A stretch of 64,000 nt of DNA from Candidatus Woesearchaeota archaeon (GCA_964344105.1 CAYFMD010000002.1:2905-66904), one strand, 5' to 3'. Numbered from the stretch's first letter, positions 12,468 to 33,299 are shown. Program-made: numbers and translations. Notes: a model not told the origin generated them from the letters alone.

Positions 12468-14114
12468 ATGGAAAATGAGGTTCCAACTGCAGAACAATTA
12501 TTACCTGATTCAATAGAAGAGAGAAAGAAATCTCTAACTAATTTCTTAACTGGATGGGTAAAAGACAGCTATGATAAGTTATTTCTATTAATCATTTTAG
12601 CAGCATTCATAATAAGAATTATAATTTATACTCAAACAAATGATCAAGCTATTTGGTGGGATGCGGCAGACTATCTTGCAACAGCAAAAAGATGGGCTGG
12701 CTTAAATCCAGAGATGATAGACATTTGGTATTATCGTAGAGGATTTTTGTGGGCATTAATTGGAGCATTTTTCTTTAAGATTGGCCTTGGTGAACTATCA
12801 ATAAGGGCTCTAATAGTCTTTTTTTCAACAGGAATAGTTTTCCTAAGCTATTTCCTAATAAAAGAAATGTTCAACAAAAGACTAGCAATCCTTGTCTCCG
12901 TAGCTGCATCAATGTCTTGGATCTACATATTTTTTTCAGGCCGACCATTGACGAATATCCCTGCAACGTTCTTCCTCTTAGCAGCAACTTTGTTTTTCTG
13001 GAAAGGATACGTAAAAAATCAAGGGAAAAAATTCATCTATCTCTTCGGACTATTTTTCGCATTAACCTGTCTAGTAAGAATGCAGTATGCTATGTTTGCA
13101 GCTCCATTTTTAGTAATGGCAATATGTAAGGAAAAACTAGGATTCTTAAAAAACAAATATTTGTGGTCAGCAGTTTTAATTTTCTTCATAATATTCATAC
13201 CTCAATTCATCTTACATACCCAATATTTCGGAAACCCTGTATTTGATATCTTAAACTATTATTTTGGAGTTGAAGGAATCTCAGAAACTGGAGAGGTAGG
13301 AGGTGTAGGAGACAGCTCTAAACTTTTAGTCTATTTTACAAACCTCCCTTACATCTTAGATGCAAATCAAGCAGGATATTCCACCCTTTTAGTTATTAGT
13401 CCAATATTCATTTTATTTGTAATAGGATCCTTTATGTTCTTCTCAGACTTATTCCTAGGATTAGATAAAATATTTACTAACAAAATAGTTCAGAAGAAAC
13501 TATTCATTCTTTCTTGGATTGTAAGTGCATTCATAATCTTGGGAAGAATTGCACCGCATTTAGAACAAAGATACATAATGCAAACACTACCTTTCCTTTA
13601 TTTAATAGCAATCTATCCTGCAACATATATTTATTCTTATTTTAAAAACAATCAGAAAGTAAAACCTATTGGATTAACCATCTTATTAGCAATAATCGTA
13701 GCATTTCTTTTCATCCCTAATTACAATTTTGGATTTGAGCTTATTGAAGGAAAGAAACATTCTTTTATGGAAGTAAAGCAAGCAGGAGAATGGATAAAGG
13801 CCAACTCAAAACCAGAAGATATAGTTATAACTGCTTCATTGCCTCAAAATTCCTATTATTCAGAAAGGCCCACCTATAATTTTTATCTAGCTCCAAGAAG
13901 AGGGATGGAAAGAAAAAACGGAACCCAATTTTATGAATTCATAGATGAACAAAGGCCGAAATATCTAGTGATCTCGGCATATGAACAACCAGCCCATTCA
14001 ATTTACACTTGGGCTTCAAATTACCCTCAAGATTTCCCAGAAAGAGTCACTCCAGTACAAGTTTACAGACAAGGAGACCAACCAGTTCTAATTGTTTATG
14101 CATTTAATTATTAA
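12468..14114 (+). CDS. GT-C fold glycosyltransferase (GT39/ArnT/PMT-like), polytopic membrane
   Basis: More than 10 predicted TM helices. First loop carries acidic IWWDAADYLAT, resembling the PMT/ArnT DE motif. Confidence 0.5.
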   Translation: MENEVPTAEQLLPDSIEERKKSLTNFLTGWVKDSYDKLFLLIILAAFIIRIIIYTQTNDQAIWWDAADYLATAKRWAGLNPEMIDIWYYRRGFLWALIGAFFFKIGLGELSIRALIVFFSTGIVFLSYFLIKEMFNKRLAILVSVAASMSWIYIFFSGRPLTNIPATFFLLAATLFFWKGYVKNQGKKFIYLFGLFFALTCLVRMQYAMFAAPFLVMAICKEKLGFLKNKYLWSAVLIFFIIFIPQFILHTQYFGNPVFDILNYYFGVEGISETGEVGGVGDSSKLLVYFTNLPYILDANQAGYSTLLVISPIFILFVIGSFMFFSDLFLGLDKIFTNKIVQKKLFILSWIVSAFIILGRIAPHLEQRYIMQTLPFLYLIAIYPATYIYSYFKNNQKVKPIGLTILLAIIVAFLFIPNYNFGFELIEGKKHSFMEVKQAGEWIKANSKPEDIVITASLPQNSYYSERPTYNFYLAPRRGMERKNGTQFYEFIDEQRPKYLVISAYEQPAHSIYTWASNYPQDFPERVTPVQVYRQGDQPVLIVYAFNY

Positions 14115-14709
14115 AACTGAAAAGATACAAATGAGTTATAGTAAAATAATTGAATTTCCTAACAACTTCTAAATTAGCATCCTTCATTATTTGAACAATC
14201 TCCTTTAATGTGGTTATATGATCAGGCACTCTCTCAGGCTTCCCAAAAAGTCTTCTCATTTTCCTAGACAAAAAATTCTCAGTAGGAATGGCCAAAACAA
14301 GATAAAAACTATCATTCATTTTCTTAAAATCTTCGATAATCTTTCTAATCTCTTCTTTAGGAATATGTTCTAAAACATCTAATGATAAAATTTTATTTGG
14401 CTTCAATGTCCTGTAATCTTTAACATCTGAATGTTCAGGAGTAATGTCATATCCTACTGCATTATGCCCCCCTCTCTTTAACTTTTCCTTGAGATAACCT
14501 GAACCACACCCAAAATCTAGAACAACATCTCCTCTCTTTAATCCTGCCATATTAACTGCCAGCTGAGTCTTAACTCTAAAGAAGGTCCTAACTAAAAAGT
14601 TCTTACTCATATGAGTTCTATTCATATCATCAGCTATTTTTTCTACAGGCATAATGTTTTCTCTATTATGATCTGTCTTAAAAAATTTATTTGAATTTTT
14701 TCCTACCAT
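14104..14709 (-). CDS. class I SAM-dependent methyltransferase
   Basis: VVLDFGCGSGYL motif I. Confidence 0.6.
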   Translation of the reverse strand: MVGKNSNKFFKTDHNRENIMPVEKIADDMNRTHMSKNFLVRTFFRVKTQLAVNMAGLKRGDVVLDFGCGSGYLKEKLKRGGHNAVGYDITPEHSDVKDYRTLKPNKILSLDVLEHIPKEEIRKIIEDFKKMNDSFYLVLAIPTENFLSRKMRRLFGKPERVPDHITTLKEIVQIMKDANLEVVRKFNYFTITHLYLFSFNN

Positions 14710-15706
14710 TTGAAATAAGTCCTTTATTCATATAATACTCGGCAGTCTTTCTAACTCCTTCATCAAGTCCAACAACCTGCCTATAGCCAAGATACTCTAT
14801 CTTACTAATATCACTATACCAATAAGGTTCTGTCATCCATTCAACAGTGTTGTGTTTAAACGGGGGATGGAAATTAAAAACCTTTGCAACTACTTCAACC
14901 AAATGACCTAAATATCTGAAGGCAATTCCTGGCAAAAAAATTGGTAAGACCTTCTTATTTTCAGCCTTAGAGATAGAATCAATCAACTGATTAATGCTAT
15001 AATGCTCTCCATTTGAAACATGATAGATTTCTCCCTTAACACCTTTCTCAAGTGCAAGTAAACAAGCCTCAACCAAATTCTCTACATAAAGAAATTCAAA
15101 ACACTTATTATCACTTCTAATTGGAAATAATTTCCTATCAATTATCTTAAACAATCTTAACATCTCAAAATCTCTTGGTCCGAAAACCATTGGAGGCCTC
15201 AATAAAACTACATTCAAACCCCTCTTAACATAATTAAATGCAACTTTCTCTTGTGCCAGCTTACTCCAACCATAAACATCAACTGGCTTACAATCAGTTT
15301 CTTCATTTACAGCATTTCCATCTAAAGAAGGTCCAACTGCAGAAACACTACTCATCATAACTATCTTTTTTACGCCTTCACCCATGCAAGCTTGAAATAA
15401 ATTATCCGTACCTTTTTCATTTATCTCAAAATAATCTTCATCAGGAATTGCCATAGGTCTAGCAATTGCTGCAAGATGAAAAACAACATCAATATCCTTA
15501 ACAGCCTCTATCAAAGAATCATTATCTAAAAGGTCTCCTCTAAATATTTCTACATCCAAGCTAGCCAATAAATCAAAAGCATCCTTTCTCTTGACATGAT
15601 CGTTCTCTCTAACAAATGCTCGGACTTCAAATCCTTCTTTAACAAGCCTTTCAACCAAATGGCTCCCAATAAATCCACTAGCTCCTGTAACTAATGCCTT
15701 AGTCAT
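14687..15706 (-). CDS. NAD-dependent epimerase/dehydratase
   Basis: VTGASGFIGSHLVERL and YGWSKLAQEK. Confidence 0.75.
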   Translation of the reverse strand: MTKALVTGASGFIGSHLVERLVKEGFEVRAFVRENDHVKRKDAFDLLASLDVEIFRGDLLDNDSLIEAVKDIDVVFHLAAIARPMAIPDEDYFEINEKGTDNLFQACMGEGVKKIVMMSSVSAVGPSLDGNAVNEETDCKPVDVYGWSKLAQEKVAFNYVKRGLNVVLLRPPMVFGPRDFEMLRLFKIIDRKLFPIRSDNKCFEFLYVENLVEACLLALEKGVKGEIYHVSNGEHYSINQLIDSISKAENKKVLPIFLPGIAFRYLGHLVEVVAKVFNFHPPFKHNTVEWMTEPYWYSDISKIEYLGYRQVVGLDEGVRKTAEYYMNKGLISNGRKKFK

Positions 15707-16755
15707 AAAAGTTCTTTCTCCTTATACCATTTAATTACATTTCTTATTCCCTCTTCTCTAGAATATTTGGGAGAATATCCCAATTGACTCTCTGCCTTTT
15801 TAGTAGAGCAAATATATTGATCATTAGTAACCCAATCTACAGTCTTCCTAGAAAATAATGGACTACCAATTTCATCTCCTCTAAATGGATAAAATGGCAA
15901 TATTACACTAAGAATTTCCATAAATCTTCCTAACTTATATGCAATAGATTTCGGAATCCTAATTACCCTAATCTCATTACCAATTTCTCTTCCAATAGCC
16001 CTCATAGTTTCAATAATTTTATAACTTTTTTCAGAAATAAAATAGACATTTCCAACAGCCTCTTTCTTAATTCCAACTAAATAAATCCCATAAACTAGAT
16101 TTTTAACATAACAAAATTCAAAGTAAGCATCTCTCTTTCCGAACATCGGAAAATAACCTGATTTAATAACTCTAAATGCTCTTGAAAGCAAAGGACTTCT
16201 TTCACCGTATGTCATTGGAGGTCTCACAATAGCAACATCCATCTTACTATTTTTATTAAAATCTAACAATATATCTTCTGATCTTTTCTTACTAACTCCA
16301 TAAGCATCAGTTGGATGCCTGGAACTTTCTTCTGTTAAATTTTTACCATCTAAAGAAGGTCCTGCAGCCTCAATACTAGAAATGTAAACAAATCTTCCAA
16401 CATTTCTTCTTTCACATTCCTTAGCCAAATTAACACTAGCCTCTGTATTAACTTGAAAATAAACTTCATCTGGTAATCCGTAATATGGATATGCAACACC
16501 TGCAACATGAAACATCACATCAACATCTCTTATCTTATCCGAAAAACTTCCTATATCATTTAGATCTCCTTCAAAGATTTCAGCACCCTTGCTCTTTAAC
16601 ATTTCAATAACTTCTGAATAAACAGTGTCATTATATGCTCTATGCATCTCTCCATCTCTAACCAAAATCTTAACCTTCCAACCTTCATTTAACAACAATT
16701 CAGACAAATGGCTCCCAATAAATCCCGCGCCTCCAGTAACAAAAGCTGTTTTCAT
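15703..16755 (-). CDS. NAD-dependent epimerase/dehydratase
   Basis: VTGGAGFIGSHLSELL and YGVSKKRSED. Confidence 0.75.
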   Translation of the reverse strand: MKTAFVTGGAGFIGSHLSELLLNEGWKVKILVRDGEMHRAYNDTVYSEVIEMLKSKGAEIFEGDLNDIGSFSDKIRDVDVMFHVAGVAYPYYGLPDEVYFQVNTEASVNLAKECERRNVGRFVYISSIEAAGPSLDGKNLTEESSRHPTDAYGVSKKRSEDILLDFNKNSKMDVAIVRPPMTYGERSPLLSRAFRVIKSGYFPMFGKRDAYFEFCYVKNLVYGIYLVGIKKEAVGNVYFISEKSYKIIETMRAIGREIGNEIRVIRIPKSIAYKLGRFMEILSVILPFYPFRGDEIGSPLFSRKTVDWVTNDQYICSTKKAESQLGYSPKYSREEGIRNVIKWYKEKELL

Positions 16756-17909
16756 TTTCTTATATAATCTCCTGATTTATAAGACCCAGAAACATTTTTC
16801 GAAGAAAAATTTTCTTGTATTACCTCCAATGCCCCTTCCATATCTATAATCTTTTTATCAACTTTCTTATTAACTAAAAGAAATCCATTCATCTCGCTAT
16901 CATCAGGATAGCCATGCATCCCCTTATACTTTTGACTCTCAGTTTTCTGATAAAAATTGGGGAAGAAATATCCTCCCTTCTCAACAAACAAAACTAAATT
17001 TCCATAATCTTCATTAAAGGGTATCTTATATTTATCAGCTAGTTCCTTAGTAAGCACCTTTATTCTACTATCTTTGCCAATTTTATCTAGAATTTTAGCT
17101 CTTTCTAATTCATCAACCCAAAAATGGGCAGTAGTCCCCGCAATAAAATGCACAAAACTTCTTTCCTCCGGAAGATATTCTTCTAAGTTAATCACTTCAT
17201 CAATATCTGCAAATCCATGATCCGACCATAAAACTACCTGGCCCTCTGGATGTTCTTTCAAAAATTTATCTACAGTTTTTTCTAATAATTTGTCTGTTTC
17301 TTTCAAGGCAAATTTAGTATTATTACTATTCTTACCATGTTTATGCATCGTTTTATCCATCTTCATTATCTGAATACAATAAATATCTGTATCTACCGAC
17401 AATAATCTACCCAATCTTCTCTCATCATCCTCATAATTCAAAACCAACCTTATATCGGATCTTTTCCTATTTCTCACGGCAAACAACGGCCATTTGTAGA
17501 TAACAAATCCCTTCCCCTTAAAGAAAGGCAACTCCCACAATCCTTCCTTCAAACTAGAATCAAAATTTATCAACTGATCTTGAGGGATCTGATGTGTCCC
17601 AATAACCCACCTCCTTCCTTTAAAATATTGAACTAGTCCTGCAACATTATTTCTTAATTTATTGTTAAATGAAAAAAGGCTAATTAAAAAATGATTAAAT
17701 ATAGAATCCTCAGATTTCTTAAACTCCAACCATTTATTATGTTCCCTAGGACTTTCTCCACTAAAAAAACTATACTCCTCAGTAAATGCAAAAAATGTCT
17801 TAAGGGTCATCAGAGAATTTTCCTTACCATACCTATAAAGAAATGGTGTATCTTCCTTGTTAATCAAATCCTTTCCCAACCCATCGATACATATAATTAA
17901 TCTATTCAT
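16752..17909 (-). CDS. alkaline-phosphatase-superfamily metalloenzyme (phosphodiesterase/phosphomutase-like)
   Basis: N-terminal ICIDGLGKD, and metal-ligand-like WSDHGF and GMHGYP. No C/S-x-P-x-R sulfatase motif. Confidence 0.45.
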   Translation of the reverse strand: MNRLIICIDGLGKDLINKEDTPFLYRYGKENSLMTLKTFFAFTEEYSFFSGESPREHNKWLEFKKSEDSIFNHFLISLFSFNNKLRNNVAGLVQYFKGRRWVIGTHQIPQDQLINFDSSLKEGLWELPFFKGKGFVIYKWPLFAVRNRKRSDIRLVLNYEDDERRLGRLLSVDTDIYCIQIMKMDKTMHKHGKNSNNTKFALKETDKLLEKTVDKFLKEHPEGQVVLWSDHGFADIDEVINLEEYLPEERSFVHFIAGTTAHFWVDELERAKILDKIGKDSRIKVLTKELADKYKIPFNEDYGNLVLFVEKGGYFFPNFYQKTESQKYKGMHGYPDDSEMNGFLLVNKKVDKKIIDMEGALEVIQENFSSKNVSGSYKSGDYIRK

Positions 17910-17924
17910 AATTTTAATCTAAAT

Positions 17925-18965
17925 TTATTTTTTTGTAGGATAGAATAAATAACAATCCTTACACAAATCAGGAGCTTTCCCTTCTTTGATCTGTTTTCTG
18001 AAATCCTTATATTTTTTAGACTTCCAGATAGTTTTCATATCTTGCTCAAAAACATTTCCCAAATTTTTGTTTCCAGCAATATCATCATACTCTCCCCCTT
18101 GATTAATGAAACAACAAGGTAAAACTTGTCCATGAACCGTCATATACATTGAATTAAATGCCCTTCTGCACTCATGCATAGGCCTCTTCTTAATAAATCC
18201 AAAATCTGCAACCACTCCAATCTCCTCTGCCCTTTTTTCAGTAATTGTTCTCATTTCATTGAATCTCCTCATATCTGCTTTGAGATGAGCAGTATCTTCA
18301 GAAGTATTCATGTTAGTTATTGTAACAGTTGGAACTCCTGTCTCTTTAGCAAACTCAATTATCTTAGGCATTTCATGAACATTCCAACTAGATGCTAAGA
18401 ATCTGATTATTGTTTTAGGCTTCCTTCTACCAGACAAAACTCTAAGCTCATTAAATCTCCTAATATTTTCCTTAACTTCCTCAAAATTTCCTCCAACTCT
18501 TATTTTTTCATAAGTTTCTTTACTGGCTCCATCAACAGAAAAGAAAACAACATCAACTCCCGTCTTTATTATCTTCTTAGAAATATCATCGTTCAACAAG
18601 GTAGCATTTGTAGTAAATGTGACTGTCGCTCCCTTTGACTTTAAGAAACCAACTATCTTCAAAAAATCCTTATTCATCAAACTCTCCCCAATTCCAGTAA
18701 GATCAAATAACAACAATCTAGGAAAAACTCTTGCTAGGGGATTGCCTTTCATTACAGAATCAAAAATATGCTTAAATTGTTCAAAACTCATAGCCTTTGT
18801 TTTATTAGATAATATGTTGTGTTCACACATTTCACAAGCTAAGTTACATCTAGTTGTATTCTCTACTTGAATAAACCAAGGAAATCCTGAAAAGTTAGCT
18901 AAAGACACATATAAATCCCTCCCAATCTTCCTCAGCCTCGCCTGATTGATCTGTAATTGCCTCAT
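17925..18965 (-). CDS. radical SAM enzyme with Cys-rich C-terminal (SPASM/twitch-like) domain
   Basis: CNLACEMCEH CxxxCxxC cluster. C-terminal cysteines CRRAF...PCCFIN...CKDC. Start placed at internal MRQLQ to avoid a 64-nt overlap; the ORF track runs to 19034. Confidence 0.65.
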   Translation of the reverse strand: MRQLQINQARLRKIGRDLYVSLANFSGFPWFIQVENTTRCNLACEMCEHNILSNKTKAMSFEQFKHIFDSVMKGNPLARVFPRLLLFDLTGIGESLMNKDFLKIVGFLKSKGATVTFTTNATLLNDDISKKIIKTGVDVVFFSVDGASKETYEKIRVGGNFEEVKENIRRFNELRVLSGRRKPKTIIRFLASSWNVHEMPKIIEFAKETGVPTVTITNMNTSEDTAHLKADMRRFNEMRTITEKRAEEIGVVADFGFIKKRPMHECRRAFNSMYMTVHGQVLPCCFINQGGEYDDIAGNKNLGNVFEQDMKTIWKSKKYKDFRKQIKEGKAPDLCKDCYLFYPTKK

Positions 18966-18970
18966 TTTGA

Positions 18971-20239
18971 TCACAGCTTTTGTAGGAAAAATACTATATA
19001 AGCATTTGCATACTCGACGGTAACCTCCTCCCAAGTTACTCCTTTAGATGGATAAACCCTATTCAAAACCTTCTTTCCCTTATCCAAAATCTTGATATCC
19101 AAACCATCTCTTTTAATACTATCAATAATGAATGGCAGTGCACCAAATATGTAAAGATCAGGTGATCTAAATCCAACATTTAACTTTCTATTCTCAATTT
19201 CCATTAATCTCTCTTTATATTTCTTAATCAAAACTAATCTAACAAAAGGAACAAGGGATCTAGAAATAATTTCATTACTAAACCCTATTTTACTCCTAAC
19301 AATATCATTAATATATGGTACATAAAATTTCTCTCCCATGCCTAATATAGCTCTAGAGAGATCTTCAACACTTTCAATTTTCTTTCCAAGGAATCTACTA
19401 AAAAAATATTTAGAAACCTTTAGCATATTCTCCTTAGCAACAAACCACTCCTCTTCCAAATTTTCAACTTTAGGCTTTTTAGGATCTATCTTCCAATGCA
19501 CATAATCTCTTATTTTATAATGAAGATCTGGAATCTCATCAAAAAGTTCTGGAAAATCTTTATCATAACTATCTAACAATATTTCCATAGAGGTTTTATA
19601 ACCAATTTGATACTTCCCAGAAAGCAGTAGAAGGGAAGTACATGCAGCAACATAAGCCTGCTGAACAAAATAAGATAAACATTCTTGTTCGTACTTGCCT
19701 TCTGAAGAATAGTATTCAATCAACTGACTCATTCTATCTAACAATAACTTAGCACCTTCAGATAATGGCATATCTTTCAAAGAAAAATTAGGAATAACTT
19801 TTCTAATATCCATTCCATAAAGAACCTTAGAATTATTCCTAAGCTCATAATTTCTAATTCTAGGTAATAACTTTCTTAAATCAGAAACCGTATCCCACTT
19901 CAAATCAATATAAAAATTATTGTCAATTCTTTGTTCTTCTTTTCTAAATGGATAGAAATTATCAATTCCTCTATAACCTAGTTTTTTAGAAATCTCAACC
20001 GAAATCTTATCTGCTTCTTCCTTGCCCAATTTTTTCTTAGAAACAATCTGTATGTCATAATCATTATAGGGCAAAACCTTCTCATCAACTAGCTTAACAG
20101 GACCCTCTCCTCTTGAAAATCCTCCTGTCAATATTATGGAAATAACCTCTGGATCTGCTTTTTTTATTTCAGAAACAATAAAATCCATGTCTGACTGAAT
20201 TTTCTTATCCGCCTCATCAGAAACAGTATAAACTCCCAT
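18971..20239 (-). CDS. Pol-beta-superfamily nucleotidyltransferase-fold protein with large helical C-terminal domain
   Basis: ILTGGFSRGEG followed by NDYDIQIV, a G[GS]...DxD pattern, then about 300 aa helical. Confidence 0.45.
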   Translation of the reverse strand: MGVYTVSDEADKKIQSDMDFIVSEIKKADPEVISIILTGGFSRGEGPVKLVDEKVLPYNDYDIQIVSKKKLGKEEADKISVEISKKLGYRGIDNFYPFRKEEQRIDNNFYIDLKWDTVSDLRKLLPRIRNYELRNNSKVLYGMDIRKVIPNFSLKDMPLSEGAKLLLDRMSQLIEYYSSEGKYEQECLSYFVQQAYVAACTSLLLLSGKYQIGYKTSMEILLDSYDKDFPELFDEIPDLHYKIRDYVHWKIDPKKPKVENLEEEWFVAKENMLKVSKYFFSRFLGKKIESVEDLSRAILGMGEKFYVPYINDIVRSKIGFSNEIISRSLVPFVRLVLIKKYKERLMEIENRKLNVGFRSPDLYIFGALPFIIDSIKRDGLDIKILDKGKKVLNRVYPSKGVTWEEVTVEYANAYIVFFLQKL

Positions 20240-20275: not shown

Positions 20276-20722
20276 TTACTCCAAATCTATCCTATCTTCA
20301 ACCTCTATTGAAGTTGAAGAGTCTGAACTTTCTTCTTTTTCAGAAAGTTCTGAATCTTGTGTATACTTCTTGCCTTCCTTCAAAGCAATGTAAGCCTTCT
20401 CAAGCTCAACTCCCAAATCGAAAGCATGATCCATCATCGTAACCAAATCTTCCTTCAGAATGGCTGTATAGACCTCTATAGGGGTGTCTCCTCTTATTAT
20501 CTTTCTAACCTTATTCTCCTTCAAATCACAAAAAGCAGCCTCTATCTTGCCTAAATCTTCATTAACTCTAATCAAGAAATACCCTGCAGGATCTAATCTC
20601 CAAGGCCTTTCAATGCCTGTAGCATCTATCTCTTCAGGTTTCTCCATAGTTATCTCCTTAAAGCCTTCTTTATCATACTTGCCCAAACTTTTACTCTCTT
20701 CTTCTGTCATACCACTAACCAT
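20276..20722 (-). CDS. hypothetical acidic protein
   Basis: 148-aa ORF with acidic Ser/Glu-rich tail. Confidence 0.35.
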   Translation of the reverse strand: MVSGMTEEESKSLGKYDKEGFKEITMEKPEEIDATGIERPWRLDPAGYFLIRVNEDLGKIEAAFCDLKENKVRKIIRGDTPIEVYTAILKEDLVTMMDHAFDLGVELEKAYIALKEGKKYTQDSELSEKEESSDSSTSIEVEDRIDLE

Positions 20723-20811: not shown

Positions 20812-21546
20812 ATGAAGAATGAGGTATCAAAAAAGAGCTTATCTTTGATTATCCCTGCACATAATTCAGAAAGAGTTCTAGAGAAATCTATCCGGGAATA
20901 TCACAAAATTTTCTCAAAAGAATTTGACAATTTCGAAATGATTATAGTTTGCAATGCTTGCCATGACAACACTTATCCATTAGCACTCAATCTGGCAAAA
21001 GAATTTCCTATAAACACAATTAACATTCCCCATAGGGGAAAGGGCAACGCATTAATTAGAGGATTCAAATTAGCTAATTACGATTTAATGGGATTTTTAG
21101 ATGTGGACAACCCTTTTGGATCCGATAGGATTTTAGATATGATAAAAAACATACATGAAGACAAATGCGACATGTCAATAGCAACAAAATATCTAAAAGG
21201 ATCTCTAAAAAATAAAAAAGGTGTTAAAGATTCCCAACAAAGAAGGATCATAGCATTAGGCGGGATGATTTTTTCCAGATTTTTCTTTAACTTAACTTTC
21301 AGAGATACTCAAGCAGGGGCCAAATTCTTCAAAAGATCTGTCTGGGAATCTATAAATAGAAATCTAATCTGCGTGGGATTTGATTTTGATATAGAACTTT
21401 TATACAAAGCAAAAAAGAAAAACTTCAGAATAGCTGAATTCTACACCCCCTTAGTAAAATTTGAGAAGTTCTCAACCGTAAGGGCCAGATATCTTGCGGG
21501 AATGGTCTATAGATTAATTAAACTCAGATTTTTCAACACCTTATGA
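20812..21546 (+). CDS. family 2 glycosyltransferase (dolichyl-phosphate sugar synthase-like)
   Basis: LSLIIPAHNSERVLEKSI and FLDVDNPF (DxD). Confidence 0.65.
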   Translation: MKNEVSKKSLSLIIPAHNSERVLEKSIREYHKIFSKEFDNFEMIIVCNACHDNTYPLALNLAKEFPINTINIPHRGKGNALIRGFKLANYDLMGFLDVDNPFGSDRILDMIKNIHEDKCDMSIATKYLKGSLKNKKGVKDSQQRRIIALGGMIFSRFFFNLTFRDTQAGAKFFKRSVWESINRNLICVGFDFDIELLYKAKKKNFRIAEFYTPLVKFEKFSTVRARYLAGMVYRLIKLRFFNTL

Positions 21547-22361
21547 AATCAATTCTATTAACATTCGATTTAGAAGAATTTGATCTCCCTAGGGAACAAA
21601 ATGCCCATATAGATGAACAAGAAATGTACACCACATCTATGAAAGGTCTAACCAACCTTCTAAATATCCTAAACAAACACAATATTCAAGCAACATTCTT
21701 TACAACGGCAAACTTTGCAAAAAAATATCCTAAAACATTAAAGAATCTAGCAAAAGATCATGAAATAGCTAGCCATGGGTTCTCACATTCTGAACCAGTT
21801 ACACTAGAAAACATGAAAGCAGCCAAAGATCTAAAAGAGGAAATTATAGGAAAACCAGTAAGGGGCTTTAGGGCTCCAAGATTCCAAATAGAACACAATG
21901 AAATTCCCTTATTGGATGAAATTGGATTTGAGTATGATTCTTCAACTCACCCAACAATTGCTCCTGGAAAGTATGTTAAGATAAACCAACCAAGATATCC
22001 TCATATGCTGAAGAACATGATAGAGCTCCCAGTAACAACTCTTCCATTATTCCCCTTCCTAAGAGCGCCCAATAATTGGTTTATGTTCAGGAACATCCCA
22101 AAACCATATCATAGGATCTATCCAAAACTGAACTTCCTATCTTCAGATTATACAATGGCATTATTCCATCCCTGGGAATTCACGGATATATCTAAATTCA
22201 ACATACCAAAACATTTCACAAATAAAACCGGAAAGCCATTAGTAAGAATTCTGGACAGCTACATCAAATTGTGCAAAAACAACAACTTCAAATTCCAAAC
22301 CTGCGAGCAATTTCTAAAGAAACATTTAGTAGCACAATACTTAAAACCACAAACAATTTAG
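21543..22361 (+). CDS. polysaccharide deacetylase (NodB/CE4 fold)
   Basis: LLTFDLEEFD (TFDD motif) and HEIASHGFSHS (His motif). Confidence 0.7.
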   Translation: MKSILLTFDLEEFDLPREQNAHIDEQEMYTTSMKGLTNLLNILNKHNIQATFFTTANFAKKYPKTLKNLAKDHEIASHGFSHSEPVTLENMKAAKDLKEEIIGKPVRGFRAPRFQIEHNEIPLLDEIGFEYDSSTHPTIAPGKYVKINQPRYPHMLKNMIELPVTTLPLFPFLRAPNNWFMFRNIPKPYHRIYPKLNFLSSDYTMALFHPWEFTDISKFNIPKHFTNKTGKPLVRILDSYIKLCKNNNFKFQTCEQFLKKHLVAQYLKPQTI

Positions 22362-22368
22362 AAAACTA

Positions 22369-23313
22369 ATGGCAGATCCCATCTCAGATCCTATAAAAGT
22401 TAATCTTCATGGACATGGCTTACCTGATTATGGCCATAAATGGAAGCGCGCTTGTGGATATGATCCATACGCCAACGTTGCAGAAATAATTTTTGATAGG
22501 TGCGTGGCTGCAGGAATTGGAATCTATACTCTAACCAACGAACCAGAATTTCCTGGATACAGAGAAAAATCAAGATATCTAAGTGTTAATGATTTCGCAA
22601 AAGAACTAGAATCTGGGGGAAGATATGAAAGAACTCCTCTTGATACTAGTGCATTCCATCTAAGAAGAAAAAAGGATGACAAAGAATTAATATTCCTGAG
22701 GGGGCAAAGTCTAAGGGTTACTGATGTTATTCCCAGAAGGAAGGATAAAAGAGAATATGAATTATTAACAGTTGGAAGGGATGATATGGGTAACTTTGAT
22801 TCCTTTGATGCAGCCTTCAATTATTTAAGAGCCCAGGGTCTCCCAGCAATCGGAGAGCATCCTCTAGCCTATGGCCATCATGGGCCTATAGAAAGAGAGA
22901 GATTAGAATTATTCTTGGAAACAAAATTACTAACTGCCGTGGAATGGAACGGAAAACTTGGAATGACAAACTGGTCTTGGTTATTTCCCCCCATTTTTAC
23001 TGGATGGAATAATGGATTAAGAGAAAAAGTTGATCAAGTTCGTGGAGCAAGAAGAAGTAGAAACACCGAGCTAGAAACTCTTGCAATAAAATTTAGAACC
23101 CCTATGATTGCAAATGATGATGCAGATCTTCCAGAACAAATTGGAATAGCTTCAACAACTTTTGAAAGAAGTGCCATAAGAATGGAGACTAGTGGATCTG
23201 AAATAGTAGAAGATATCTATAGGCTAATAAGGGACGGATGGTTTAAAGCAAACAAAGGAGATATAGGCACTCTAGGATTCCTAAGATATGGGCATAAAAT
23301 AGCAACGGTCTAA
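22369..23313 (+). CDS. hypothetical protein, possible metal-dependent hydrolase
   Basis: His-rich N-terminus VNLHGHGLPDYGH. No confident family assignment. Confidence 0.3.
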   Translation: MADPISDPIKVNLHGHGLPDYGHKWKRACGYDPYANVAEIIFDRCVAAGIGIYTLTNEPEFPGYREKSRYLSVNDFAKELESGGRYERTPLDTSAFHLRRKKDDKELIFLRGQSLRVTDVIPRRKDKREYELLTVGRDDMGNFDSFDAAFNYLRAQGLPAIGEHPLAYGHHGPIERERLELFLETKLLTAVEWNGKLGMTNWSWLFPPIFTGWNNGLREKVDQVRGARRSRNTELETLAIKFRTPMIANDDADLPEQIGIASTTFERSAIRMETSGSEIVEDIYRLIRDGWFKANKGDIGTLGFLRYGHKIATV

Positions 23314-24990
23314 TCACTGAATAACTTTCAATTCAACAACTTCAATCTTCTTATGTGGAATAGGTTCTGTAGCTCCTGGTTTCATAGCCGCTAAATCTTG
23401 TCTAGGATTATGTAAGTTAGCTAACATTCTAGCTGTCTGCTCTGGAGTCAAAATCTCATCTTCCACATTTCTTACTTCTGGTTTCCTGCTAAAGTCTTTT
23501 AGATGTCCAAACAAAGCAGTAACGCCTTCAAAGGTATACTTAACATCCTCCCAGCTTCTTATTCTAGATTTGGCATGATGCCAAATATAACTGGGTCTTA
23601 GGTAAGTCATATAATTGTGCTTACAAAGTCCCTGGATTTCTTCAGGTGTCATCTCCATATTCTTCAAAGCAGGCTGATCCATAGCTAACTTCTCATAATC
23701 ATCTTTCTCAAATCTCAGCCAACCTTCCTGAATAGCCTCTTCATATAATGGAGTTCCTGGGTAGGGCATAACAATTGTAGACTGATGGATATCAACTAAT
23801 CCTGCGCTCATCATCTTATCTGCAAGCTCAAAAACCCTCATAGAATCCTGCTTAGTCTCCCAAGGATAACCTACCATCATAGTCAAATGAACAGTTAGCC
23901 CAGCATCTTTGGCATCCTTACAATGTCCAAAAACCTTATCGATATCCGTACCCTTATCTAACTTATCAATAGTCTTCTGACAACCACTTTCCAAACCAAA
24001 CTTCAATAATCTAAATCCGGCCTTCTTCATCAACCTATACATCTCTGCATCAACCCAGCCAAACCTCATGTTACAACTATACATAACCTTCTCATTATAA
24101 CCACTTTCAATCATCAACTCACAAAACTTCTTCAACCAAGGGCCTGGAGGAATTGTTCCTGCATCATCAAAAATTTCTCTAGCTCCAAAATTATCAACTA
24201 AATGTTTAACCTCTTCAAATGTATTCTCCGGAGTCCTCTGCTTGTAAGCACCTTTAGGATATAATGCATGATCCCAAACACAAAAAGTACATTTTCCCCA
24301 AGCACAATCTCTAGCACTCATAATATAGAACTGAGGCCTTCCTTTCAAGTTAAACTCATCCTGATAGTTCATATATTTTGTTAGATTCCTATCTGGAAAC
24401 GGAGCATCATTAATATTCCTGTCAGTCTCTTTATAGAATTCATACCTACCATTCTCAACTACTTCTCCATTTTCATTTCTATACCATACTCCATGAGGTG
24501 CACCTTTCTTGCCTTCATTTAACCATTCAACCAAATCTGAGAAAGCAAAATCATAATACCCTCCATTAATCACATAATCCACCTTACTATTATCTAAAGT
24601 CTCTTTAGGAAGATAACTAACATGATCTCCACAAATTGCTATCTTCATCCATGGAAACTTTTCTTTCATGTGATTAATTCCTTTCCAATGAGCTTTAACC
24701 ACTGGAGCCTTTGTCTCAAACAAGAATATATCTGGCGTTTCCCTCTCAATTATCTTATCAAATTCTTGCCACCCCAAAAATTGAGCAATAGCGTCTTCCC
24801 AGATCACATCATGACCGTTCTCTTTGACCATTGTAGCACCAGTACCTAAAACAACTGGATACAAAAAAGTAGGTTTGTTAAAATACTGAAATTGTCTATT
24901 TTGGCTCAACAAAGGGGTTCCCAAAGGACTTTGCGTAGGCGGAAATCCCACCATTATCTTCATCTTCTTTTTCATATTATCACCATCCAT
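23314..24990 (-). CDS. B12-binding-domain radical SAM enzyme (class B, putative methyltransferase)
   Basis: CAWGKCTFCVW CxxxCxxC after an N-terminal domain of about 200 aa. 558 aa. Confidence 0.65.
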   Translation of the reverse strand: MDGDNMKKKMKIMVGFPPTQSPLGTPLLSQNRQFQYFNKPTFLYPVVLGTGATMVKENGHDVIWEDAIAQFLGWQEFDKIIERETPDIFLFETKAPVVKAHWKGINHMKEKFPWMKIAICGDHVSYLPKETLDNSKVDYVINGGYYDFAFSDLVEWLNEGKKGAPHGVWYRNENGEVVENGRYEFYKETDRNINDAPFPDRNLTKYMNYQDEFNLKGRPQFYIMSARDCAWGKCTFCVWDHALYPKGAYKQRTPENTFEEVKHLVDNFGAREIFDDAGTIPPGPWLKKFCELMIESGYNEKVMYSCNMRFGWVDAEMYRLMKKAGFRLLKFGLESGCQKTIDKLDKGTDIDKVFGHCKDAKDAGLTVHLTMMVGYPWETKQDSMRVFELADKMMSAGLVDIHQSTIVMPYPGTPLYEEAIQEGWLRFEKDDYEKLAMDQPALKNMEMTPEEIQGLCKHNYMTYLRPSYIWHHAKSRIRSWEDVKYTFEGVTALFGHLKDFSRKPEVRNVEDEILTPEQTARMLANLHNPRQDLAAMKPGATEPIPHKKIEVVELKVIQ

Positions 24991-25063
24991 TATCCTTTTA
25001 TTAAGCTTTAAACTCTGTATAATATCTATTATAACGGATATATTTAAACATAACTATAGTTAA

Positions 25064-25246
25064 TTATTCGCTTCCTCTGAACCCTCTATCAGCAAACATT
25101 CCTATAGTAAATCCTATTATTCCTATTAGAAAAGATAATCTCCAACTCAATCCCCAATCAAAATATGGTTTACCAAAAAACACAAAAGATCCAAGAAGGG
25201 GCATAACATATTCAGGTAATCCCATAAAATTCAAACCCTCATTCAA
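25064..25246 (-). CDS. small membrane protein
   Basis: 60 aa with two hydrophobic segments. Confidence 0.3.
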   Translation of the reverse strand: MNEGLNFMGLPEYVMPLLGSFVFFGKPYFDWGLSWRLSFLIGIIGFTIGMFADRGFRGSE

Positions 25247-25265
25247 TATATAAACATTTATTCAA

Positions 25266-25784: not shown

Positions 25785-25820
25785 CTCTATAAAAATAGGA
25801 ATAAAAACTCTTACTTAAAT

Positions 25821-26873: not shown

Positions 26874-26876
26874 AAA

Positions 26877-27818
26877 TTATAGCCTCTTTTTGAAGCTTAA
26901 ATAGATTCCTATGATTGAAGGAATAATTCCAGCTACAACTAATCCTATTATAGACATAGAGAAAACCTTGGCAGCACTAACTCCAAATAATGCAAACAAA
27001 CTAATCAAAGTAGCCTCTCTAGTTCCTAGCCCATTGATGCTAATTGGTATCATAGTAACCAGAGTCCCTATAGGATAAATAGCAAAATAAACCATCAATG
27101 GAACATCTATACCTAAAGAAAGTCCGATATAATATGCAGTAACATAATTCAACATCCAATTAATAAAATTCAAAGCAAAGAAAAGTACAAAATATCTCTT
27201 TCTAGGAACGTGTTCATAAAATGAATTGAAAGTCATCTTTGCCTTTTCTCTTAACCTAGCCGGAATCAATTTTCTATGGAAAAATTTCAAAATAAAATAA
27301 CTCCTTTCTTTCTTTATGAAAAACAAGATTCCCAAAACAAAAAATAAAAATAGGGCACTAAAGAAAGTCACAGGTAGATCTAGGGTATCCTTAAACTGGT
27401 AAGAGAATAACAATGCAATAAATATTATAGCACTAACATCTAATATCTTATCAATAACAAAATTAAACAATCCCTTCCCTATTTTATCATCTGCATATTC
27501 TTTCAAATATTCTGCTCTTATTACTGAACCAACCTTAGAGGGTGTTACAAATCCATAATAATTTTCAACCAAATTAATCTTGAAAGCTTTCTTGAAAGGA
27601 ACTTTCATATCCTGGAATCTTGCTATAGTGAACCATTTCAAAGTTTCAGAAAACAATCTAATAATTATTACTAAAATAGCAATAGAAATAAAATAAATAT
27701 TAACCCTGCTAACTTCTTTAACCACCTCACTAAAATCAATCTTAGCCAATATGTAAACAAACAAAATTATACCAATTATGGGCAAATATTTTTTCCAATT
27801 TCTTATAAAATAATTCAT
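26877..27818 (-). CDS. polytopic membrane protein (flippase-like / UPF0104-like)
   Basis: About 8 TM helices, sitting between a GT2 and the AglH-like gene. Confidence 0.35.
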   Translation of the reverse strand: MNYFIRNWKKYLPIIGIILFVYILAKIDFSEVVKEVSRVNIYFISIAILVIIIRLFSETLKWFTIARFQDMKVPFKKAFKINLVENYYGFVTPSKVGSVIRAEYLKEYADDKIGKGLFNFVIDKILDVSAIIFIALLFSYQFKDTLDLPVTFFSALFLFFVLGILFFIKKERSYFILKFFHRKLIPARLREKAKMTFNSFYEHVPRKRYFVLFFALNFINWMLNYVTAYYIGLSLGIDVPLMVYFAIYPIGTLVTMIPISINGLGTREATLISLFALFGVSAAKVFSMSIIGLVVAGIIPSIIGIYLSFKKRL

Positions 27819-28825
27819 ATTAATGCCCCCTTAAAGATAAAAAAGGCCAATAAACAAATAACAATCTGTATCAGGAAAATAAAATGAACAACATCCTTTT
27901 CATACACCTTCTTTTTATATTTCTTCAATATTAGTAGTGAAAGATGAGTCATTCCATAAACCTTGCTATAAGGTATTTCCAAACTGCCATCCTCATTAAC
28001 TTTAGCAAAAGAAGGCTTCTTCAACCTACCTCTAACTTTCAAAAAAGTCTCAACAATATATGGAATAAAAACAAAAACCGCTATTCTCTCAAAATTACCC
28101 AATATTGCCATAGCGGCTATCAGTGCTCCAATAGAATATGTCAAAACATCTCCTGGGAAAACTTTAGCAGGAACTTTGTTGTACATATAGAAAACGATCA
28201 ATGCCATAACCATGCACAATCCAACTACTGTCAGCCAAGCACTTCCCGTTAGATATGCTATGAGGCTCAAAAAACTAATTATTATAATCCCTTGGCCGCT
28301 TTCCAACCCATTAAATCCTGCTAGAAAATTGTAAGTAGTTGTAGCCCCTGCAATGCCTATTGGAATTAATAATAACGGATAATAGATTCCTAGATCAACA
28401 ACACCCCAAATAGGAATCTCAATAACCTTTGAACCTGCATTAATAACAACCAATGGAATTGAAGCCATAAATGCCAAAAACAACCTAAACTTTATTGACA
28501 ACCCTCTAGATGTCCATCCAAGAACATCATCCACAAAGCCGATCAAACCAACTAATAATATCAAACTCAATAATGCAAATATTTTTGTAACTTCTCCATT
28601 ACCTCCCAAAAAGAATGTCTTCAAAGCAATATAGCTTAAAACTCCTACAACAAAACTTATCACAACAATTATTCCTCCAGAAGCCGCCACAGCCTTCTTC
28701 TTATCAACCTTATTCATATCTTCCCACAACAATCCAACCTCTCTACACTTTTGTATCCATTTAGGCAATGCATAAAAGCACAAGGCAAAACTCAATAACA
28801 TAGATAGTGCCAATAAATTTTCCAT
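27815..28825 (-). CDS. GT4-family (MraY/WecA/AglH-like) dolichyl-phosphate HexNAc-1-phosphate transferase
   Basis: Polytopic protein with NFLAGFNGLESGQG, an MraY-like NxxNxxDGxDGL-type motif. Confidence 0.65.
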   Translation of the reverse strand: MENLLALSMLLSFALCFYALPKWIQKCREVGLLWEDMNKVDKKKAVAASGGIIVVISFVVGVLSYIALKTFFLGGNGEVTKIFALLSLILLVGLIGFVDDVLGWTSRGLSIKFRLFLAFMASIPLVVINAGSKVIEIPIWGVVDLGIYYPLLLIPIGIAGATTTYNFLAGFNGLESGQGIIIISFLSLIAYLTGSAWLTVVGLCMVMALIVFYMYNKVPAKVFPGDVLTYSIGALIAAMAILGNFERIAVFVFIPYIVETFLKVRGRLKKPSFAKVNEDGSLEIPYSKVYGMTHLSLLILKKYKKKVYEKDVVHFIFLIQIVICLLAFFIFKGALI

Positions 28826-28917
28826 TTTTATATTCTCTTTTAAGTACCAAATTATAAGTGTTTTTAATATTATAGGTTAGAAATATCTTCTAGCACTAAC
28901 AGATACCAAAACCAAAA

Positions 28918-33262: not shown

Positions 33263-33299
33263 TCTTAAATACCCCAAAAACATACTAAAATAACAAAAG

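What the first reader, a model, noticed from the sequence alone, without database searches (positions are those of the whole stretch)
16752..20239. Unusual trio inside the glycan locus: AlkP-superfamily metalloenzyme, SPASM-like radical SAM, and a 422-aa Pol-beta-fold nucleotidyltransferase
The radical SAM has the CxxxCxxC cluster plus a Cys-rich C-terminal domain like SPASM/twitch maturases. It sits between an alkaline-phosphatase-fold enzyme that lacks the sulfatase C/S-x-P-x-R motif and a large nucleotidyltransferase-fold protein (GGFSRGEG...NDYDIQIV) with a helical domain of about 300 aa. That protein's motif spacing superficially resembles cGAS/DncV-like and other signalling nucleotidyltransferases. 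Possible roles are novel sugar or lipid-carrier modification, for example phospho-substituent transfer, or an unrelated embedded module.
Basis: partly seen in the sequence, partly recalled or inferred. Interest (0 to 1): 0.5.

Follow-up and report, generated by a model that had tools for sequence, protein, structure and literature searches.

The report
Conserved nucleotidyltransferase–phosphodiesterase pair in glycan loci
In the surface-sugar gene cluster of a tiny DPANN archaeon, an antibiotic-adenylyltransferase-like enzyme and a phosphodiesterase-like enzyme form an uncharacterised pair that recurs, sometimes fused, across many archaeal and bacterial phyla and probably adds a phosphate-linked decoration to sugar chains.

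Summary
The three ORFs exist as described and lie in one tightly packed minus-strand operon of an archaeal (DPANN) N-glycosylation supercluster. The conserved unit is a pair, not the trio.

- **NTase (422 aa).** It has no Pfam or NCBIfam model. Its high-confidence model resembles aminoglycoside adenylyltransferases (ANT(3'')(9)/AadA, KNTase) and MNT/HEPN, not cGAS/CD-NTases.
- **Linkage.** In 79 related loci from about 20 lineages, both genes were found in 71, always on the same strand. They are fused into one polypeptide in 7, directly adjacent in 49, and 1-2 genes apart in 12. GT2 glycosyltransferases and flippase-like membrane proteins are the usual neighbours.
- **Radical SAM.** It is a BtrN-like twitch enzyme (one auxiliary cluster, not a full SPASM). 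It is an accessory: present near the pair in about 15% of loci, and its homologues also sit in glycan loci that lack the pair.
- **Oddity.** All six metal ligands of the NPP partner are invariant, but no Ser/Thr/Cys nucleophile is conserved across the family.

Best reading (inferred, about 0.4): a nucleotide-dependent tailoring module that nucleotidylates a sugar on a lipid-linked glycan and then resolves the phosphodiester to leave a phosphate-linked group.

The parts
18971..20239 (-). 422-aa Pol-beta-fold nucleotidyltransferase. It is ANT/KNTase-like, with an extra C-terminal helical domain. Catalytic carboxylates are D60, D62 and D112.
16752..17909 (-). 385-aa cytoplasmic NPP/ENPP-type AlkP-superfamily metalloenzyme, the conserved partner of the NTase. 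Metal ligands are D9, D185, H189, D230, H231 and H332. Ala41 sits at the sequence-aligned nucleophile position, and Thr43 sits two residues later at the start of the following helix.
17925..18965 (-). 346-aa radical SAM with a twitch-type C-terminal auxiliary-cluster domain. The mechanical ORF extends to 19034 from a TTG. It is an accessory gene sitting between the pair.
   Evidence: Radical_SAM plus SPASM Pfam hits. C40/C44/C47 and C266, C284, C285, C335, C338 are invariant. The C-terminus matches BtrN at E 1.4e-7. It reaches no NCBIfam equivalog cutoff. Homologues sit in glycan loci.
20276..20722 (-). 148-aa stand-alone PterinBD-DUF4346 protein, the first gene of the operon. It occurs only in the closest relatives.
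   Evidence: PF14251 at 1e-18. Found upstream of the NTase only in L001-L003.
15703..16755 (-). SDR epimerase/dehydratase. Its best model is HpnA-like. It overlaps the AlkP stop codon by 4 nt.
14687..15706 (-). Second SDR epimerase/dehydratase, HpnA-like. It is conserved after AlkP in DPANN loci.
14104..14709 (-). Methyltransf_23 SAM methyltransferase, the last gene of the operon. It is recurrent in DPANN loci and lies between the NTase and AlkP in L004.
12468..14114 (+). PMT_2 / ArnT-like GT-C glycosyltransferase (8 TM), convergent with the operon. It is conserved in DPANN loci.
20812..22361 (+). Divergent pair: a GT2 (244 aa, PpgS/AglJ-like) and a polysaccharide deacetylase (272 aa).
   Evidence: The pair is conserved next to the NTase in L007, L008, L013, L015, L020 and L083.
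23314..24990 (-). B12-binding radical SAM. HpnJ is its best NCBIfam model, but the score is below the cutoff. It lies immediately upstream of the NTase in most DPANN loci.
26877..27818 (-). PF03706 flippase-like membrane protein (HpnL/MprF-type). It is fused to the NTase in L004 and adjacent to the pair in at least 9 loci.
27815..31668 (-). GT4 (AglH-like phosphoglycosyl transferase) and STT3/AglB oligosaccharyltransferase, which anchor the supercluster to N-glycosylation.

Best explanation
The functional unit is a two-enzyme, nucleotide-dependent glycan-tailoring module. It works at the cytoplasmic face of the membrane on a lipid-linked sugar or oligosaccharide, alongside a GT2 glycosyltransferase and before flipping.

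Step 1 (inferred from fold and an intact catalytic triad). The ANT-like nucleotidyltransferase uses an NTP to attach NMP to a hydroxyl, or possibly a phosphate, of a sugar and releases PPi.

Step 2 (inferred from fold, intact two-metal site, and fusion or adjacency). The NPP-type partner binds the resulting nucleotide-phosphodiester or pyrophosphate. It carries out substitution at phosphorus and releases the nucleoside or NMP. This leaves a phosphate-linked substituent on the glycan: a phosphomonoester, or a phosphodiester to a second alcohol.

No Ser/Thr/Cys nucleophile is conserved across the family. The transfer may therefore be direct, with water or an acceptor hydroxyl on the metal site, rather than through a covalent enzyme intermediate.

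The BtrN-like twitch radical SAM between the two genes is a lineage-restricted accessory. It probably oxidises or epimerises the same sugar anaerobically.

Shown: gene structure, folds, catalytic residues, conserved pairing and fusion, and glycan-locus context. Inferred: substrate, order of steps and product.
For: Linkage.
- NTase and AlkP are on the same strand in all 71 loci that hold both. They are fused in 7 loci (Betaproteobacteria, Planctomycetota, Verrucomicrobia/Opitutus, Armatimonadota), directly adjacent in 49 and 1-2 genes apart in 12.

Folds and sites.
- D60, D62 and D112 are invariant, and many aromatic residues in the helical domains are conserved.

Context.
- A GT2 lies directly next to the pair in 26 loci, and AlkP is fused to a GT2 in L066. 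The partner GT2s are glycan-extending types.
- A PF03706 flippase-like domain is fused to the NTase in L004 and adjacent in at least 9 loci.
- Thermoplasmatota and Halobacteriales carry a MOP-like membrane protein, GT2, AlkP and NTase in one operon.
- DPANN loci join the pair to AglB, AglH-like GT4 and a PMT_2 GT-C.
- No TM segment or signal-like start is predicted in either enzyme.
Against: - No substrate, product or nucleotide specificity was determined. All chemistry is inferred from fold.
- Canonical NPPs keep the phosphate on the nucleoside. Leaving phosphate on the glycan needs a reversed binding orientation, as in ENPP6/7.
- About 40% of family members (27 of 65) have no Ser/Thr/Cys near the nucleophile position. 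The partner could be a hydrolase using water, or even a metal-dependent binding subunit.
- No phosphate-bearing glycan is known from any organism carrying the pair.
- The window also holds two conventional sugar-1-P nucleotidyltransferases. Donor synthesis is thus already provided for, but a special donor is not excluded.
Confidence: 0.4

Rival explanations
1. Dedicated donor-supply module. The NTase makes an unusual nucleotide-activated sugar or cyclitol (NDP-X or NMP-X) for the adjacent GT2 or GT-C. The NPP partner clears NDP or PPi by-products, or converts the activated species.
For: The GT2-AlkP-NTase triad recurs, and an AlkP::GT2 fusion exists. All three enzymes would share a nucleotide. 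Hydrolysing an activated pyrophosphate with water would explain why a covalent nucleophile is dispensable. HpnA-like SDRs lie next to AlkP, and enzymes of this class usually act on NDP-sugars.
Confidence: 0.2
2. Transient nucleotide handle. The NTase tags a small intermediate with NMP so that the radical SAM enzymes (twitch and B12-type), SDRs and methyltransferase can recognise and remodel it. The NPP then removes the handle. This is the logic known for Fom1, Fom3 and FomD in fosfomycin biosynthesis (recalled from my own knowledge, not checked here).
For: In DPANN loci the order is B12-rSAM, NTase, twitch rSAM, AlkP, B12-rSAM, SDR, methyltransferase. A twitch rSAM lies exactly between the pair in 6 loci and directly after the fusion in planctomycete L049.
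Against: Most loci with the pair have no radical SAM at all: 66 of 79. In those loci a GT2 and a flippase are the only constant neighbours.
Confidence: 0.12
3. anSME-like maturation. The SPASM/twitch radical SAM post-translationally converts a residue of the neighbouring AlkP-fold enzyme into a catalytic formylglycine.
For: A radical SAM with an auxiliary cluster sits adjacent to an AlkP-superfamily protein. The canonical nucleophile is missing or variable.
Confidence: 0.03
4. Signalling or defence pair. A CD-NTase-like synthase makes a nucleotide second messenger and a phosphodiesterase degrades it, for example to regulate glycan synthesis or act against phage.
For: Pol-beta fold with an intact triad. 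Synthase and phosphodiesterase fusions recall GGDEF-EAL proteins.
Against: PADLOC gives no hit for the NTase or AlkP. CD-NTases and OAS score only Foldseek E 0.3-1.1, against ANT at 5e-4. No effector or receptor genes are present. The genes are embedded mid-operon between glycosyltransferases in about 20 lineages, including reduced DPANN and CPR genomes.
Confidence: 0.03
5. An aminoglycoside or lincosamide resistance nucleotidyltransferase that happens to lie in the locus.
For: The best structural matches are ANT enzymes.
Against: No sequence similarity to any ANT family or PDB chain. The protein carries about 190 extra residues. It is obligately paired with NPP and GT2 genes across phyla.
Confidence: 0.02

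Closest known systems
Aminoglycoside O-nucleotidyltransferases ANT(3'')(9)/AadA, AAD(9) and ANT(4')/KNTase
   Different: No detectable sequence similarity. About 190 additional helical residues. Obligate partnership or fusion with an NPP-type enzyme. A glycan-biosynthesis context rather than resistance.
MNT-HEPN (MntA-HepT) nucleotidyltransferase/toxin pairs
   Different: Here both parts are in one chain with a further helical domain. There is no toxin-antitoxin gene arrangement, and the neighbours are glycosyltransferases.
Nucleotide pyrophosphatase/phosphodiesterases (Xanthomonas NPP, ENPP4, ENPP6, ENPP7)
   Different: Cytoplasmic and without a signal peptide. The nucleophile Thr is not conserved: the aligned column is Gly or Ala, and the next candidate column is S/T/C in only about half of members. 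Always coupled to an NTase.
LicC/LicD (phosphocholine), TarI/TarL and fukutin/FKRP (ribitol-phosphate): nucleotide activation followed by phospho-substituent transfer to a glycan
   Same: Same proposed logic: a nucleotidyltransferase plus a second enzyme installs a phosphate-linked group on a glycan, and both are encoded inside glycan loci.
   Different: Different folds for both steps. There is no LicD or LicC Pfam hit, and no LicD or FKRP among the top structural matches. The transferred group is unknown.
WbdD-type chain terminators (kinase plus methyltransferase) of ABC-transporter-dependent O-antigen pathways
   Same: In some bacterial loci the pair sits with a methyltransferase, large GT4-GT2 polymerase-like proteins and, in L066, what looks like a Wzt-type ABC ATPase (read from a fragment of its sequence; no family search was run on it). 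This layout suggests a terminal phospho(methyl) cap.
   Different: There is no kinase domain. A methyltransferase is present in only a minority of loci. Archaeal loci use flippase or OST routes.
BtrN / NeoN-type twitch radical SAM enzymes
   Same: CxxxCxxC plus a C-x17-CC...C-x2-C auxiliary-cluster pattern. The C-terminal domain matches BtrN at E 1.4e-7. Homologues lie in sugar-modifying gene neighbourhoods.
   Different: Only about 25-30% local similarity. The substrate is unknown, and there is no aminoglycoside pathway.

Membership tests
Pol-beta superfamily nucleotidyltransferase | h-G-[GS]-x(9-20)-D-h-[DE]-h motif plus a third acidic residue on the next strand, and the alpha-beta-alpha-beta-alpha-beta core fold | tested here: met
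ANT aminoglycoside nucleotidyltransferases (sequence families) | Significant match to an ANT/KNTase/AadA sequence family (Pfam or PDB sequences) | tested here: not met
   No Pfam or NCBIfam hit. phmmer and profile searches against PDB sequences find no ANT. The similarity is at fold level only.
ANT aminoglycoside nucleotidyltransferases (function) | Adenylylation of an antibiotic | not testable with these tools
   Needs an enzyme assay or MIC test.
CD-NTase / cGAS-DncV-like | cGAS/OAS-type fold with a helical spine; match to CD-NTase models; adjacent effector | tested here: not met
LicD / fukutin-FKRP phosphotransferases | Match to PF04991 or a LicD-like fold | tested here: not met
   No Pfam hit at E 0.01 or better. 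Absent from the top structural matches.
AlkP superfamily, NPP/ENPP clade (PF01663) | PF01663 above the gathering score; NPP fold | tested here: met
AlkP superfamily, NPP/ENPP clade (PF01663) | Six ligands of the binuclear metal site | tested here: met
   H189, D230, H231 and H332 are in 100%, and D9 and D185 in 94-97%, of 67 homologues from all lineages.
AlkP superfamily, NPP/ENPP clade (PF01663) | Thr/Ser nucleophile at the N-terminus of the helix after strand 2 | tested here: inconclusive
   The profile alignment puts Xac NPP Thr90 opposite Ala41. Thr43 sits immediately before helix 44-50 in the model and is at least 90% conserved in DPANN. Family-wide that column is T24, S7, C3, A17, V3 and others, and 27 of 65 sequences have no S/T/C nearby.
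Sulfatase / formylglycine enzymes | C/S-x-P-x-R motif; sulfatase fold | tested here: not met
Radical SAM superfamily | CxxxCxxC cluster motif; PF04055 | tested here: met
   C40, C44 and C47 are invariant. PF04055 scores 58.5 bits against 29.5.
SPASM (two auxiliary clusters) versus twitch (one) | Seven-Cys SPASM motif including CX2CX5CX3C | tested here: not met
   Only C266, C284, C285, C335 and C338 are conserved, and there is no CX2CX5CX3C. The Pfam SPASM model still matches. The pattern and the PDB hit fit the BtrN twitch type.
anSME or named rSAM maturases (tungsten-cofactor maturase, PqqE, MftC and others) | Score above the NCBIfam equivalog cutoff | tested here: not met
   The best hit, TIGR04317, scores 164.8 against 380. 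All others are far below their cutoffs.
Hopanoid side-chain enzymes HpnJ, HpnL and HpnA (for the neighbouring genes) | Score above the NCBIfam cutoff | tested here: not met
   HpnJ 166 against 578, HpnL 40 against 196, HpnA 160 and 109 against 368. These are the best-scoring models but not memberships, and the organism is an archaeon.

The most novel reading that the evidence does not exclude
The NTase plus nucleophile-variable NPP pair is a previously unrecognised, pan-prokaryotic route for building phosphate-linked glycan decorations. It would work by direct two-metal phosphoryl transfer from a nucleotidylated sugar, with no covalent enzyme intermediate. In DPANN archaea it would be combined with an Hpn-like set: GT2, deacetylase, HpnJ-like B12 radical SAM, HpnL-like flippase and HpnA-like SDRs. 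That set would remodel a dolichol-linked amino sugar into a ring-contracted or otherwise carbocyclic head group. Such a group has no anomeric centre, so it would have to be activated and transferred through phosphodiester chemistry before a GT-C enzyme displays it on the cell surface.
Probability: 0.12. Interest if true: 0.85.

Novelty: new variant of a known kind. Interest (0 to 1): 0.6.

Why it matters
The NTase family is large: about 2,000 representatives of 50%-identity clusters, 1,018 of them at E 1e-10 or better. It has no Pfam or NCBIfam model and no experimental characterisation that I could find.

Its near-obligate coupling to an NPP-fold enzyme predicts a specific and testable piece of glycan chemistry. 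The coupling includes natural fusions and spans DPANN, CPR, Thermoplasmatota, haloarchaea, Asgard, Chloroflexota, Planctomycetota and Verrucomicrobia. Current annotation reduces both genes to 'hypothetical protein' and 'alkaline phosphatase family protein'.

Two wider points follow.
- DPANN and CPR organisms depend on surface contact with hosts, so an unrecognised surface-glycan decoration is biologically relevant.
- An NPP-fold enzyme that keeps its metal site while the covalent nucleophile is dispensable would be an informative natural experiment for alkaline-phosphatase-superfamily enzymology.

The bacterial fusions are convenient soluble targets for biochemistry.

Tried and rejected
2. LicD-like or routine polysaccharide NTase family: no Pfam or NCBIfam hit.
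4. anSME-type maturation of AlkP by the rSAM: rejected.
5. RiPP or peptide maturase role for the rSAM: unsupported, because its homologues lie among glycan genes in the three contexts examined.
6. WbdD-like methyl-phosphate cap as the general function. A strict SAM-motif scan found a methyltransferase within 4 kb in only 9 of 77 loci. The scan is crude, since it missed known methyltransferases in L050 and L066. I kept the idea only as a lineage-specific variant.
7. ORF clusters 6 and 11 'downstream' of the pair in Thermoplasmatota turned out to be antisense artefacts of high-GC DNA.
8. Literature searches for the pair, for DPANN N-glycosylation plus nucleotidyltransferase, and for DPANN radical SAM clusters found nothing describing it.
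9. The AFDB Foldseek library was unavailable.
10. Sequence and profile searches of the NTase against PDB found only noise.
11. tRNA and Rfam scans of the window found nothing.
Full report
**1. Observation**

The window is low-GC (about 35%) archaeal DNA. uL6 and uS5 match the archaeal models and SecY is present. Homologues of the target genes are named Pacearchaeota, Woesearchaeota or Nanoarchaeota, so the organism is a DPANN archaeon.

The three ORFs are at the stated coordinates on the minus strand:
- AlkP, 16752-17909
- radical SAM, 17925-19034
- NTase, 18971-20239

The radical SAM ORF as listed starts at a TTG and overlaps the NTase gene by 64 nt. The ATG at 18965 gives the 346-aa product that is called on the identical public contig. 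With that start the spacers are 5 nt and 15 nt. The three downstream genes overlap by 4, 4 and 23 nt.

The trio is therefore the middle of a seven-gene operon running from 20722 to 14104: PterinBD-DUF4346, NTase, rSAM, AlkP, SDR, SDR, methyltransferase.

- AlkP matches PF01663.
- The rSAM matches Radical_SAM plus SPASM.
- The 422-aa protein has no Pfam or NCBIfam hit.
- The Pol-beta motif residues G39, D60, D62 and D112 are invariant in 33 homologues.

The surroundings are a glycan locus tied to N-glycosylation. It holds STT3/AglB, an AglH-like GT4, a PF03706 flippase-like protein, two GT2s, a deacetylase, a B12 radical SAM and a PMT_2 GT-C.

**2. The 422-aa protein**

A 33-sequence alignment gave a confident AlphaFold model (pLDDT 93, pTM 0.92).

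- Foldseek agrees. ANT(4') with neomycin and AadA with ATP and streptomycin score E 5e-4 to 1e-3. CD-NTases and OAS1 score E 0.3-1.1.
- PADLOC models do not match.
- Sequence and profile searches against PDB chains find nothing significant.

The protein is thus a sequence-orphan member of the ANT/MNT-HEPN branch of the Pol-beta superfamily. It carries about 190 extra C-terminal helical residues. It is not cGAS/DncV-like.

The family is large: 2053 representatives of 50%-identity clusters at E 1e-3 or better, and 1018 at 1e-10 or better.

**3. The AlkP-fold protein**

The six ligands of the two-metal site (D9, D185, H189, D230, H231, H332) are essentially invariant in 67 homologues from all lineages. 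No TM segment is predicted, and the protein begins directly with the first core strand, so it is cytoplasmic.

The nucleophile is the odd point.
- A family-profile alignment to Xanthomonas NPP places the catalytic Thr90 opposite Ala41, in a conserved [AG]-[FY] dipeptide.
- Thr43 lies two residues later, immediately before helix 44-50 in the model. It is at least 90% conserved in DPANN.
- Across the family that column reads T24, S7, C3, A17, V3 and others.
- 27 of 65 sequences have no Ser/Thr/Cys anywhere near. These include most Thermoplasmatota and Halobacteriales ('PPGFAQR') and most fused bacterial forms ('FGF[VA]P').
- A Chloroflexota subgroup keeps a canonical S-x-x-C-H.

A covalent nucleophile is therefore not a family-wide requirement, although the window protein may use Thr43.

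**4. The radical SAM**

C40, C44 and C47 form the SAM cluster motif. The C-terminal domain has only five invariant Cys (C266, C284, C285, C335, C338). This is the C-x17-CC...C-x2-C pattern of a single-auxiliary-cluster twitch domain.

- Its best PDB match is BtrN (E 1.4e-7).
- No NCBIfam equivalog cutoff is reached.
- Homologues at 30-55% identity lie among NDP-sugar and glycosyltransferase genes. One such locus has the pair (L083). Two do not (L084 in Parcubacteria, and L085, which carries an eRF1-type release factor).

I read it as a sugar-modifying radical SAM rather than a peptide or protein maturase.

**5. Comparative genomics**

A pattern scan of one genome per GTDB species gave 78 loci. 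I called ORFs and mapped domains with profiles built from the alignments. With L004, 79 related loci were evaluated.

| Arrangement of NTase and AlkP | Loci |
|---|---|
| Fused in one polypeptide | 7 |
| Directly adjacent | 49 |
| Separated by 1-2 genes | 12 |
| Farther apart | 3 |
| No AlkP found | 4 |
| No NTase ORF captured | 4 |

In all 71 loci with both genes they are on the same strand. The fusions occur in a betaproteobacterium, two Planctomycetota, three Verrucomicrobia/Opitutus and an armatimonadote. Of the four loci with no AlkP, one contig is only 4.6 kb and in two the NTase lies near the contig end.

The carriers include:
- DPANN and CPR (Saccharibacteria, WWE3)
- Chloroflexota
- Bathyarchaeota, Helarchaeota, Nitrososphaeraceae and Archaeoglobaceae
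- Thermoplasmatota and Halobacteriales
- Planctomycetota and Verrucomicrobia
- Proteobacteria, Acidobacteria and others

Gene order differs between lineages (NTase then AlkP in DPANN, AlkP then NTase elsewhere). The linkage has therefore been maintained through rearrangement.

Recurrent partners are as follows.
- **GT2.** A glycan-extending GT2 lies directly adjacent in 26 loci, and AlkP::GT2 is fused in L066.
- **Flippase-like membrane proteins.** PF03706 is fused to the NTase in L004 and adjacent in at least 9 loci. A 9-12-TM MOP-like protein sits in the Thermoplasmatota and Halobacteriales operon.
- **Large GTs and methyltransferases.** Some bacteria add large GT4-GT2 proteins and methyltransferases.
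- **Twitch-type radical SAM.** One lies in 13 of 79 loci. It sits exactly between the NTase and AlkP in six DPANN loci, once fused to a GT2. One lies immediately after the AlkP::NTase fusion of planctomycete L049.

The pair is the core. The radical SAM is a recurrent but optional accessory.

**6. Mechanism**

Shown: both enzymes are cytoplasmic, have intact catalytic metal sites, are genetically coupled or fused, and sit among enzymes that build lipid-linked glycans.

Inferred, and my preferred model (about 0.4):
- The ANT-like enzyme nucleotidylates a sugar hydroxyl, or possibly a phosphate, on the nascent lipid-linked glycan.
- The NPP-type enzyme performs substitution at that phosphorus and expels the nucleoside or NMP.
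- A phosphate-linked substituent is left on the glycan.

The logic resembles LicC/LicD or WbdD, but uses different folds. The variable nucleophile suggests direct metal-assisted transfer or hydrolysis.

Rivals:
- a dedicated supply of an unusual nucleotide-activated donor, with by-product clearance (0.2)
- a transient nucleotide handle for radical SAM tailoring, as in Fom1/Fom3/FomD (0.12)
- anSME-like maturation, signalling or defence, and antibiotic resistance (each 0.03 or less)

The evidence for and against each is given in the structured fields. None of the chemistry could be tested here.

**7. Wider DPANN context**

This was noticed while working and only partly followed up. The neighbouring genes score best against the hopanoid side-chain models, but all fall well below the membership cutoffs:

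| Gene | Best model | E-value |
|---|---|---|
| B12 radical SAM | HpnJ | 1.4e-48 |
| PF03706 protein | HpnL | 3e-10 |
| SDR (14687-15706) | HpnA | 7.6e-47 |
| SDR (15703-16755) | HpnA | 2.9e-31 |

A divergent GT2 plus deacetylase pair parallels HpnI and HpnK. In bacteria, HpnI, HpnK and HpnJ convert a lipid-linked GlcNAc to GlcN and then to a ring-contracted cyclitol ether. A similar radical ring contraction makes calditol in Sulfolobus (PMC13459092).

This raises the possibility that DPANN remodel a dolichol-linked amino sugar in a similar way. The ANT-like and BtrN-like enzymes, both from families that act on aminocyclitols, would fit such chemistry. This remains speculation.

**8. Verdict**

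- What is there is an uncharacterised, widely distributed and sometimes fused NTase-NPP module of glycan loci, with an unusual variable-nucleophile NPP partner.
- It belongs to known superfamilies and to a known kind of process (glycan tailoring), but I found no described counterpart. I class it as a new variant of a known kind, with interest 0.6.

Noticed in passing
window 20812-28825 and 14687-16755: The neighbours form an 'Hpn-like' set. The B12 radical SAM (23314-24990) scores best against HpnJ, the PF03706 protein (26877-27818) hits HpnL, and both SDRs score best against HpnA. A GT2 plus deacetylase pair (20812-22361) parallels HpnI and HpnK. All scores are below the family cutoffs, and the organism is an archaeon. 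This hints at lipid-linked amino-sugar remodelling or ring contraction (PMC13459092).
   Followed up: partly
window 20276-20722 (-): A stand-alone 148-aa PterinBD-DUF4346 protein with an acidic, Ser-rich C-terminal tail is the first gene of the operon. This domain is normally the C-terminus of MtrA or dihydropteroate-synthase-like proteins. It occurs upstream of the NTase only in the closest relatives.
   Followed up: no
window 22369-23313 (+): A 314-aa ORF with no Pfam or NCBIfam hit follows the deacetylase. Homologues are present in other DPANN loci (L007, L013).
   Followed up: no
window 9679-11487 (+): A 602-aa fusion of a sugar-1-P nucleotidyltransferase (NTP_transferase) with a GHMP kinase sits next to a dehydratase-type SDR, a HAD hydrolase (called on the identical contig L001) and a second NTP_transferase (8288-9025). 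This looks like a conventional salvage route to an NDP-sugar in the same locus.
   Followed up: no
L046, L049, L050, L055, L063, L079, L082; L066; L004; L015: Natural domain fusions link the components. AlkP::NTase (765-814 aa) occurs in seven bacterial loci. AlkP::GT2 (783 aa) is in L066. PF03706::NTase (723 aa) is in L004. GT2::radical SAM (619 aa) lies between the NTase and AlkP in L015.
   Followed up: yes
L041, L054, L057, L064, L069, L073 (Chloroflexota and Pirellulales AlkP homologues): This subgroup keeps a canonical NPP-like S-x-x-C-H nucleophile motif ('GYSVTCHASMYTG'). Most other lineages have Gly or Ala and no nearby Ser/Thr/Cys.
   Followed up: partly
window 31742-34694 (+) and 36697-39183 (-): Three large ORFs (506, 464 and 828 aa) have no NCBIfam hit at E 1e-10 or better. 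They lie beside the AglB gene and a ribosomal-protein/SecY cluster.
   Followed up: no
window 1-64000: There is no tRNA and no Rfam family match in 64 kb. GC skew is strongly negative throughout (cumulative -8.8), which fits with most genes being on the minus strand.
   Followed up: no
L084 (Parcubacteria) and L085 (archaeon): These CPR and archaeal glycan loci hold several radical SAM enzymes (one twitch and, in L084, two B12-type) next to NTP_transferase, SDR, GT4 and GT2 genes, without the NTase/AlkP pair. This suggests widespread anaerobic radical tailoring of sugars in these groups.
   Followed up: no
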